A stretch of 64,000 nucleotides of DNA from assembly GCF_009914755.1 (NCBI RefSeq), contig NC_060931.1. The stretch is one strand, 5' to 3'. Below the pieces are notes generated by a model, which was not told the origin of the DNA, made no database searches, and saw nothing but the letters and a program-made list of their open reading frames with translations. The stretch comes from the human T2T-CHM13v2.0 reference genome, Homo sapiens. Positions 29,100 through 31,581 of the stretch are shown in pieces (the first letter of the stretch is position 1; each line of letters starts with the position of its first letter). A program made the translations under genes and the position numbers.

Positions 29100-29323
29100 T
29101 GTGTTGAATTTGTTGACTCATCGTGAACAAACAGAAACTCCAATGATACTGTTACCCAAGAGAACTTTGCAAAAGGTTGTCATGTTTAATAATTCATTCA
29201 CAGAATCCTCAATCTCACAAAAGCCTGGAATGGATTTTCTGTTTGGACAGGGCAGGGAAGCTACTGTGGCCAGGCTCCAGCTCTTCCCACTGCAGCTAGC
29301 ACAAGCCTTCTAAAGCAGGATGT
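29100..29323 (+). promoter_or_regulatory. Duplicated ancestral AKR1B10-type promoter
   Basis: AP-1 TGACTCA 29114-29120, CCAAT 29140, TATA-like TAATAA 29187, downstream of a CT microsatellite; same layout as I recall for the AKR1B10 promoter. Confidence 0.6.
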
Positions 29324-29600
29324 GGCCGGGCACAGCTCATGCCTGTAATCCCAGCACTTTGGCAGGCCGAGGTGGGTGGATCACCTGAGGTCAGGAGTTT
29401 GAAACCAGTCTGTCTCTACTAAAAATACAAAAGTTAGATGGGAGTGATGGTGGGTGCCTGTAATCGCAGCTATTCAGGATGCTGAGGCAGGAGAATTGCT
29501 TGAACCTGGGAGACAGAGGTTGCAGTGAGCCAAGATCACACCACTGCACTCCAGCCTGGGCATCAGAGCAAGACTCCGTCTCAAAAACAAACAAACAAAA
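29324..29600 (+). mobile_element. Alu in the ancestral 5' UTR
   Basis: TSD AAAGCAGGATGT (29312-29323); the right copy AAAGCAG/GACGT is split by the ERV9 insertion. Confidence 0.9.
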
Positions 29601-30654
29601 AGCAGTGAGAGGTGAAGCCACCTGGACTTCCTGGGTTGAGTGGAGACTTGGAGAACTTTTCTCTTTAGCTAGCAGATTGTAAAGTCACCAATCAGTGCTC
29701 TGTGTCTGGCTAAAGGATTGTTAATGCACCAATCAGCACTCTGTAAAAATGTACCAATCTTTCATCCCATCTCATCCCATCTTTCAGTCACTTCACAAAT
29801 GGTTCCTAGTAGATACAAAACAGTTTTTTCTCCAATGGGAAAACAGAAAACAGCCACTCAGTTTGCTCCCAACACCCGTTTCTAGCCGCTTACCACAGCT
29901 ACCTTGGCAAGTACTCTAGGAGTATGGGAAAATGAAAACGACAAACTCACACACCTTTTTAACATACACAACCAGTTCTGACTACCTAGCCAAGGCAGAT
30001 TCTTCTTCTGTGGAATGTCAACCTATATCTGCCTCCCGACCAACTGGACAGGCACCTGCAACCTTAGTCTTCCTATGTCCCAACATTAACATTGCCCCAG
30101 GAAATCAGACCCTATCAGTGCCCCTCAAAACTCAAGTCCGTCAGCACAGAGCCATACAGCTAATACCCCTGCTTATAGGGTTAGGAATGGCTACTGCTAT
30201 GGGAACCGGAATAGCCAGTTTATCTACTTCATTATCCTACTATCACACACTCTCAAAGGATTTCTCAGACAGTTTGCAAGAAATAACAAAATCTATCCTT
30301 ACTCTACAGTTCTAAATAGACTCTTTGACAGCAGTGACTCTCCAAAACCACTGAGGCCTAGGCCTCCTCACTGCTGAGAAAGGAGGGCTCTGCATCTTTT
30401 TAGGGGAAGAGTATTGTTTTTACACTAACCAGTCAGGGATAATACGAGATGCTGCCCGGCGTTTACAGGAAAAGGCTTCTGAAATCAGGCAATGCCTTTC
30501 TAATTCTTACACCAACCTCTGGAGTTGGGCGACATGGCTTCTCCCCTTTCTAGGTCCCATGAAAGCCATCTTGCTATTACTCACCTTTGGGCCCTGTATT
30601 TTTAACCTCCTTGTCAAATTTGTTTCCTCTAGGATCGAGGCCATCAAGCTACAG

Positions 30655-30804
30655 ATGGTCTTACAAATGGAACCCCAAGTGAACTCAACTAACAACTTCC
30701 ACCAAGGACCCCTGGACCAACCCGTTGGCCCTTTGACTGGCCTAAAGAGTTCCCTTCTGAAGGACACTACAAGTGCAGGGCCCCTTCTTCGCCCCTATCC
30801 AGCA
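30655..30804 (+). CDS. AKR1B15: Alternative first coding exon of AKR1B15 (long 344-aa isoform), derived from ERV9 env cytoplasmic tail; exon 30633-30804
   Basis: tttcctctag|GATCG acceptor, ATG at 30655, 50 codons MVLQMEPQVN...PLLRPYPA, phase-0 donor GCA|gtaagt matching phase-0 exon 2; matches the recalled N-terminus of the long AKR1B15 isoform. Confidence 0.85.
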
Positions 30805-30872
30805 GTAAGTGGCTAGAGAGGTCATCACCCAATTCCCAACAGCAGTTGTGGTGTCCTGTTTAGATGGGGGAT

Positions 30873-31464
30873 TGAGAGGTGAAGCCAGCTGGACTTCCTG
30901 GGTCAAGTGGGGACTTGGAGAACTTTTCTGTCTAGCTAGAGGATTGTAAATGCACCAATCAGTGCTCTGTGTCTAGCTAAAGGATTGTAAATGCACCAAT
31001 CAGCACTCTGTAAAAACGCAGCAATCAGCACTCTGTAACTAGCTAAAGGGTTGTAAATGCACCAATCAGCACTCTGTAAAATGGAACAATCTGCAGGATG
31101 TGGGCAAATAATGGAATAAAAGCTGGCCACCCCAGTCAGCAGCAGCAGGGAACCGCTCAGATACCCTTCCACACCGTGGAAACTTTGTTCTTACCCTCTT
31201 GACGAAAAATCTTGCTGCTGCTCACTCTTTGGGTCCACACCACCTTTAAGAGCTACAACGATCACCACGACAGTCTGCGGCTTCATTCTTGAAGTCAGCG
31301 ACACCACAAACCCACCAGAAGGGAGAAACTCCAGACACATCTGAAGGAACAAACTCCAGACACAACATCTTTAACAGCTGTAACACACACTGTGAAGGTC
31401 CACGGCTTCATTCTTGAAGCCAGCGAGACCACGAACCCTCTGGAAGGAACCAACTCTGGACACA
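30873..31464 (+). promoter_or_regulatory. LTR12 3' LTR, ending 51 bp upstream of the AKR1B15 ATG
   Basis: Multiple CACCAATC boxes, AATAAAA TATA-like element at ~31115, sense orientation. Confidence 0.8.
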
Positions 31465-31515
31465 GCAGGACGTGAGACTTCTACCTGCTCACTCAGAATC
31501 ATTTCCGCACCAACC

Positions 31516-31581
31516 ATGGCCACGTTTGTGGAGCTCAGTACAAAAGCCAAGATGCCCATTGTGGGCCTGGGCACTTGGAGG
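31516..31581 (+). CDS. AKR1B15: AKR1B15 exon 1 (short isoform)
   Basis: accATGG Kozak; [22 protein letters not shown]|gtaaat. Confidence 0.93.

What the first reader, a model, noticed from the sequence alone, without database searches (positions are those of the whole stretch)
29100..31581. ERV9 landed in the 5' UTR, inside an Alu's target-site duplication, separating AKR1B15 from its inherited promoter
Seen: the Alu left TSD is AAAGCAGGATGT; the right TSD is AAAGCAG[ERV9, TSD GCAG]GACGT. Removing the provirus restores Alu-gcaggacgtgagacttctacc...accATG. The AP-1/CCAAT/TAATAA promoter is now ~1.86 kb further from the ATG, and a complete sense LTR12 ends 51 bp before it. Known: LTR12 elements are NF-Y-driven promoters, inducible by HDAC/DNMT inhibition. 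Inference: promoter replacement explains why AKR1B15 expression differs from the stress-inducible AKR1B10.
Basis: partly seen in the sequence, partly recalled or inferred. Interest (0 to 1): 0.7.

Follow-up and report, generated by a model that had tools for sequence, protein, structure and literature searches.

The report
Retrovirus rewired a duplicated human enzyme
An old retrovirus inserted into the front end of the human gene AKR1B15, but not its twin AKR1B10, pushing the original promoter 1.9 kb away and donating 50 amino acids to one protein form; the gene likely now runs on viral promoters, though whether this virus's own end starts the active form is untested.

Summary
The anatomy is confirmed. 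A deleted ERV9 provirus (29606-31464, TSD GCAG) splits the right TSD of a 5' UTR Alu. AKR1B10 has the Alu and an empty site. The AP-1-to-ATG distance grows from 540 to 2402 nt. The inherited leader looks abandoned: 5 ATGs against 0 in AKR1B10, and AKR1B10's reported functional NRF2 element is mutated.

RefSeq starts the gene 14 kb upstream in a HERV-T provirus and lists no exon starting in the LTR12. AKR1B15 is reported up in NRF2-active tumours and smokers. This LTR is short, not LTR12C-like.

The LTR has lost the poly(A) signal kept by 26 of 29. Only starts after 31111, inside or after the LTR, give an ATG-free leader. Best reading: HERV-T start plus a likely secondary LTR12 start for the active enzyme. 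This is a known kind of event at an apparently undescribed locus.

The parts
14553..23945 (+). HERV-T (HERVS71) provirus holding the annotated AKR1B15 start (15188) and exons 15188-15327 and 22813-22936; LTRs about 14553-15128 and 23450-23945
   Evidence: LTR pair by blastn, K2P 0.121; family name from PMC13756109 and PMC13107634; exons from the hub's RefSeq table
25616..50606 (+). Duplicated unit: copy of AKR1B10 from about -9.1 kb to +12.25 kb (window numbering)
28185..28760 (-). Second, antisense solo LTR12 inside an upstream Alu, TSD CCAC, absent from AKR1B10; 8 CCAAT boxes
29114..29192 (+). Inherited promoter: AP-1 29114 intact, ARE-A equivalent 29124-29132 with its GC changed to AC, CCAAT 29140, TAATAA 29187
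   Evidence: ARE-A position from PMC8224097
29307..29605 (+). Orphaned 5' UTR: equivalent of the AKR1B10 start (29307), left TSD 29312-29323, Alu 29324-29598, first part of right TSD; 5 ATG and 4 CpG, against 0 ATG and 8 CpG in the whole 345-nt AKR1B10 UTR
29606..29759 (+). 5' LTR remnant (U3 only), joined by a deletion to env
29760..30872 (+). ERV9 env fragment with in-frame stops, ending in the purine tract
   Evidence: Pfam TLV_coat E 5.6e-24 and 6e-13
30633..30804 (+). Exonized env tail: acceptor shared by 29 of 29 relatives, ATG 30655 by 25 of 29, donor GT at 30805-30806 by 0 of 29; encodes the 50-aa N-terminus of the 344-aa isoform in the env frame
30873..31464 (+). Complete sense 3' LTR12-type LTR: 3 CCAAT boxes, AATAAA TATA-like box 31115, diverged start motif near 31136-31147, R-region poly(A) hexamer lost (31204-31209), no ATG after 31111
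31465..31581 (+). TSD GCAG, retained 47-nt UTR stub and ancestral coding exon 1 (ATG 31516; 316-aa isoform)

Best explanation
An ERV9 provirus inserted into the 5' UTR of AKR1B15, not of its twin AKR1B10, and moved the inherited promoter 1.86 kb from the start codon; the gene likely now depends on viral starts, an annotated one in an upstream HERV-T provirus and a predicted secondary one in the ERV9 3' LTR that would give the only clean leader for the active 316-aa enzyme. Shown: insertion, empty paralog site, displacement, ATG asymmetry and ARE-A change in the inherited leader, Env-frame origin of the long isoform's first 50 residues, private splice donor, lost R-region poly(A) hexamer. From annotation: HERV-T exons splice into the env acceptor at 30633. 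Inferred: use of the private donor gives the inactive Env-tail fusion (344 aa). Skipping it reads through the LTR, helped by the lost poly(A) signal, but gives a leader with 9 upstream ATGs and a 53-codon uORF ending 765 nt before the next junction, predicted to translate poorly and invite NMD. Caps placed about 25-30 nt after the AATAAA box would avoid both problems.
For: Empty site in AKR1B10. ATGs present in only one paralog: 5 in AKR1B15 against 0 in AKR1B10 in the old leader, versus 61 against 73 in five other aligned stretches; one-sided p 0.02, two-sided sign test 0.06. 0 of 16 unrelated Alus nearby are ATG-free, while the AKR1B10 UTR Alu is. ARE-A changed. Upstream ATG counts: 28 from the old start unspliced, 9 from HERV-T, 0 from 31140. 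TATA-like box kept, as in 24 of 29 relatives; poly(A) hexamer lost with two private changes, chance about 0.02 for a given hexamer. Donor private, 0 of 29. The 316-aa frame is intact, dN/dS 0.5 against AKR1B10. Expression in testis and placenta fits LTR-driven genes (recalled generality). LTRs usually act as alternative promoters.
Against: No cap-site data seen. The hub's RefSeq table lists no exon starting in the LTR. AKR1B15 is absent from all six papers' supplements searched, some files unread. The start motif reads GTCAGCAG, shared by 1 of 29 relatives, where 18 of 29 have GCCAGCAG. CCAAT count is 3 against a median of 5, tied for lowest. An ATG-free R-U5 is not rare: 6 of 29 relatives over the first 220 nt, 6 of 27 over the detected R-U5, and no relative ATG site exceeds 13 of 29. 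LTR CpG retention (7 against a median of 5) is unremarkable. The AATAAA box at 31115 is itself a poly(A)-type hexamer, so read-through is not fully cleared. The two p values are post hoc. The 29 relatives are the best-scoring of 40 scored from 4392 candidates, not a random sample.
Confidence: 0.45

Rival explanations
1. The HERV-T LTR is the only real promoter. The ERV9 is a passive cassette that supplies an acceptor, an Env-tail exon and a long ATG-rich UTR, which would explain the low AKR1B15 output.
For: RefSeq start 15188 and exon 30633-31581 (hub table). HERVS71_7q33 and AKR1B15 correlate, 0.87 in non-smokers and 0.53 in smokers. HCC transcripts are predicted to span the HERV and the gene. 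Weak-looking LTR12 start motif and few CCAAT boxes.
Against: The leader has 9 upstream ATGs and a 53-codon uORF. The correlation is expected anyway because the exons overlap the HERV. The RefSeq 5' end of the short form may be borrowed from the long form (untested).
Confidence: 0.33
2. One reading: the LTR12 is the main promoter, and that alone explains why AKR1B15 is regulated unlike AKR1B10.
For: Sense orientation, 51 nt from the ATG, TATA-like box and 3 CCAAT boxes kept, ATG-free leader.
Against: Annotated start in HERV-T; ARE-A point change offers a separate cause; reports of NRF2 and smoking induction; not an LTR12C-sized element.
Confidence: 0.1
3. The inherited AP-1/CCAAT/TAATAA promoter still works, either firing through the provirus or acting, with the antisense LTR12, as an enhancer on a downstream start.
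For: AP-1, CCAAT and TAATAA are all intact. A RefSeq enhancer 28490-29673 covers it (hub table). The AP-1 site itself contributes to the NRF2 response in AKR1B10, which could explain retained inducibility.
Against: As a promoter: 28 upstream ATGs if unspliced, ATG and CpG asymmetry in its leader, no annotated exon there. The enhancer form is not excluded and is compatible with the best explanation.
Confidence: 0.12

Closest known systems
LTR12/ERV9 alternative promoters (ADH1C LTR12; TP63, GBP5, SEMA4D LTR12C; DHRS2 LTR12D), PMC11853044 Table 1
   Same: Sense ERV9 LTR close to a host coding exon, with CCAAT repeats and an AATAAA box
   Different: AKR1B15 is not in that table. Here the LTR is the 3' LTR of a deleted provirus inside the first exon, not a solo LTR upstream. 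It is short, and no start site has been shown.
ERV ORF exonization in AKR1B15, UBXN8, PPHLN1 (PMC7499964)
   Same: Already names AKR1B15 as a gene with an exon overlapping an ERV ORF
   Different: The passage seen gives no family, frame, donor origin or promoter consequence
HERV-T 2636 / HERVS71_7q33 at AKR1B15 (PMC13756109, PMC13107634)
   Same: Retroviral origin of the annotated 5' end of the same gene
   Different: The passages seen concern the upstream HERV-T, not the ERV9 in exon 1
AKR1B10 promoter (AP-1, ARE-A, CAAT, TATA-like; PMC8224097)
   Same: Direct paralog of window 29034-29322, 8-9% diverged
   Different: ARE-A changed, 1.86 kb further from the ATG, and flanked by two LTR12 insertions in AKR1B15

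Membership tests
ERV9/LTR12 provirus | Two LTRs, target-site duplication, env remnant, empty pre-insertion site | tested here: met
   the 5' LTR is truncated
ERV9/LTR12 provirus | U3 tandem repeats of about 41 nt with CCAAT, and AATAAAA about 30 nt before the start motif | tested here: met
   Period-41 array 30929-31011, box at 31115; definition from PMC11853044. Only about 2-3 repeats against the 5-17 quoted.
ERV9/LTR12 provirus | Primer-binding site of the family | tested here: inconclusive
   Deleted at this locus. 1 of 29 relative loci reached a 5' LTR end with a PBS (L007); that it is Arg-type is recalled, not tested.
ERV9/LTR12 provirus | Match to Dfam/Repbase subfamily models | not testable with these tools
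   No repeat library is held; the family name rests on features and recall
LTR12C (the HDACi/DNMTi-responsive subtype) | Long LTR with a 5' extension of about 600 nt | tested here: not met
   LTR 592 nt, 242 nt from its start to the box; sizes
Exapted LTR promoter | Intact start motif GCCANNNNTGGC | tested here: not met
   Reads GTCAGCAGCAGC; the strict motif is found in only 5 of 29 relatives, so the test is weak
Exapted LTR promoter | Capped transcripts from R spliced into the gene, and loss on LTR silencing | not testable with these tools
   No CAGE or RNA data; literature and supplement searches blank
ERV-exonized host isoform | Annotated coding exon in a viral reading frame | tested here: met
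   30655-30804 is in the env frame after the TLV_coat match
Domesticated Env peptide | Purifying selection on the viral codons | tested here: not met
   6 private changes in 50 codons, 0 synonymous and 6 non-synonymous; small sample

The most novel reading that the evidence does not exclude
AKR1B15's two isoforms are set by two different retroviruses. HERV-T starts an inactive Env-tail fusion through a newly arisen donor, while the ERV9 3' LTR, having lost its poly(A) signal, is the start for the active mitochondrial enzyme. A duplicated gene that lost its promoter would thus have been rescued by the same insertion that disabled it, making active versus inactive output a switch between two LTRs.
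Probability: 0.3. Interest if true: 0.7.

Novelty: new member of a known kind. Interest (0 to 1): 0.5.

Why it matters
AKR1B15 is a steroid and retinal reductase reported as a prognostic marker in NRF2-active tumours, yet the papers seen do not say where its active isoform starts. [quoted passage not shown] It predicts that much gene-level AKR1B15 RNA codes for no active enzyme, and it gives a single 5'-end experiment that decides between promoters. It is also a clean paired case, with the empty paralog next door, of how an insertion in a 5' UTR rewires a young duplicate.

Tried and rejected
1. Selection for an ATG-free LTR leader: not shown, since no conserved ATG was lost and 6 of 29 relatives are ATG-free too.
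2. Germline hypomethylation of the LTR from CpG retention: not significant.
3. Selection on the Env-tail peptide: none seen.
4. Exon 1 conservation (64 of 66 coding bases) as proof of use in AKR1B15: constraint in AKR1B10 or gene conversion could give the same.
5. Absolute dating: LTR-LTR 15 of 153 differences, 95% interval 5.6-15.7%, too wide. Only relative timing is given.
6. One search was a bacterial promoter scan and is irrelevant.
7. Literature: 10 searches found no paper describing an ERV9/LTR12 promoter at AKR1B15. Weber 2015, Brocks 2017 and Beyer 2016, the papers most likely to hold cap-site or LTR-gene lists, were not available, so absence from print is not established. One supplement file each of PMC10593957 and PMC6771403 was unread, and long tables may be cut.
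8. No primate genomes were available, so the insertion's species range is untested.

Full report
OBSERVATION. The window shows an Alu from 29324 with left TSD AAAGCAGGATGT (29312-29323), then AAAGCAG (29599-29605), a provirus 29606-31464, a second GCAG and GACGT. Searching the own genome with 29080-29330 gave two matches: the locus and the AKR1B10 promoter at 91%. There the Alu is followed directly by AAAGCAGGACGTGAGACTTC and the ATG, with no ERV. The AP-1 site lies 540 nt before the ATG in AKR1B10 and 2402 nt in AKR1B15. The RefSeq AKR1B10 start maps to window 29307, so both Alu and ERV9 sit in what was 5' UTR. The LTR ends 51 nt before ATG 31516.

ANATOMY. AKR1B15 lies in a copy (25616-50606) of the AKR1B10 unit, K2P 0.074-0.115 in five stretches and about 0.05 in two; coding dS 0.079, dN/dS 0.5. 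The provirus has a 154-nt 5' LTR remnant, an env fragment with stops (Pfam TLV_coat in 2 of 3 stretches scanned) and a whole 592-nt 3' LTR. Its private-change rate against 29 relatives is 37 of 896 sites, 4.1%, about half the paralog distance. I infer that insertion followed soon after duplication. A second, antisense solo LTR12 sits at 28185-28760 and is also missing from AKR1B10. The annotated gene start (15188) lies about 60 nt past the 5' LTR of a provirus at 14553-23945, named HERV-T/HERVS71 in PMC13756109 and PMC13107634 (passages).

THE INHERITED PROMOTER. AKR1B10's 345-nt UTR has 0 ATG and 8 CpG. The orphaned copy has 5 ATG and 4 CpG, and all 5 decayed CpG pairs are kept on the AKR1B10 side. 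In five other aligned stretches, paralog-specific ATGs split 61 to 73. Among 16 unrelated Alus none is ATG-free. Some of the five may be losses in AKR1B10 rather than gains, but either way only AKR1B10's leader is kept clean. The element that PMC8224097 (passages) reports as the only functional ARE, at -530 to -522, reads TGAACAAGC in AKR1B10 and TGAACAAAC here; AP-1, CCAAT and TAATAA are intact. I put the odds that the old start no longer makes productive mRNA at about 0.8.

WHAT THE ERV9 SUPPLIES. The coding exon 30655-30804 of the 344-aa isoform is in the env frame and is its C-terminal tail. This isoform is reported inactive, with an N-terminus unlike other AKRs (PMC4519324 and PMC13681562, passages). 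In 29 related copies (the best-scoring of 40 scored) the acceptor AG is in 29 and the ATG in 25, but the donor GT is in 0: one private base at 30806 made the exon. The tail shows no purifying selection (0 synonymous, 6 non-synonymous private changes). PMC7499964 already lists AKR1B15 among genes with an exon overlapping an ERV ORF (passages). In the LTR, the R-region poly(A) hexamer is present in 26 of 29 relatives and lost here by two private changes. This would ease read-through, although the TATA-like AATAAA at 31115 remains.

IS THE LTR THE PROMOTER? For: orientation, distance, the retained box, three CCAAT boxes, and translation logic. Leaders carry 28 upstream ATGs from the old start unspliced, 9 from HERV-T and 0 from 31140; the last upstream ATG is at 31111. 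The HERV-T leader's uORF stops 765 nt before the exon end, a predicted NMD feature by general knowledge. Against: the RefSeq table lists exon 30633-31581 and no exon starting in the LTR. The start motif is diverged, and CCAAT number is at the low end. ATG-free R-U5 also occurs in 6 of 29 relatives. Inhibitor-induced starts are mainly LTR12C, and LTRs are often alternative rather than replacement promoters (PMC11853044, passages and sections 3-4). AKR1B15 does not occur in the searched supplements of PMC5085097, PMC8767690, PMC7499964, PMC10593957 or PMC6771403 (supplement search only). I give about 0.45 that the LTR is a real start for part of the 316-aa mRNA.

THE EXPRESSION CLAIM. PMC12361507 lists AKR1B15 among the most upregulated genes with NFE2L2 or KEAP1 mutation in liver cancer, and PMC11624210 lists it as NRF2-activated (passages). 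PMC4519324 cites induction by smoking and sulforaphane. Cross-mapping is possible, since one exon is 107 of 107 identical, but the contrast is not established. Where expression does differ, at least three changes compete: displacement, the ARE-A change and the HERV-T start.

NOVELTY AND VERDICT. LTR12 promoters and ERV exonization are known kinds, and the HERV-T overlap and an ERV-derived exon of AKR1B15 are in print. The UTR insertion with empty paralog site, the decay of the old leader, the Env-tail identity with its private donor and the lost poly(A) signal were not found in 10 searches. Three key papers were unavailable. Family and subfamily names rest on features and recall, not on a repeat library. 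New member of a known kind; interest 0.5.

Noticed in passing
window 28185-28760 (-): Antisense solo LTR12 with 8 CCAAT boxes, an intact R-region poly(A) hexamer and a variant TATA-like box (ATTAAA), inside an Alu and under the RefSeq enhancer 28490-29673; absent from AKR1B10.
   Followed up: partly
window 26177-28045 and 40166-44751: Two stretches only about 5% diverged from AKR1B10 against 7-12% elsewhere, suggesting gene conversion; exon 41855-41961 is 107 of 107 identical, a risk for RNA-seq assignment.
   Followed up: partly
window 28828-29033: About 206 nt of extra C/T microsatellite relative to AKR1B10, upstream of the AP-1 site.
   Followed up: no
window 13800-14552 and 23946-25610: The HERV-T provirus appears to interrupt the pol-like region of another ERV (read by eye; PMC13107634 names HERVI_7q33a and c near the gene). 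13890-14347 matches 53556-53971 at 66%.
   Followed up: no
window 31579-31587: The ancestral exon 1 donor reads AGG/GTAAAT against AAG/GTAAAT in AKR1B10, one match fewer to the donor consensus.
   Followed up: no
L007 1-2400: Another internally deleted ERV9 copy: its 5' LTR end and PBS lie only about 1.2 kb before the env end.
   Followed up: no
L002 1734-1747 (AKR1B10): The Alu's left TSD is more diverged in AKR1B10 (8 of 12 to the right TSD) than in AKR1B15 (11 of 12), at the spot where AKR1B15 has an ATG.
   Followed up: partly
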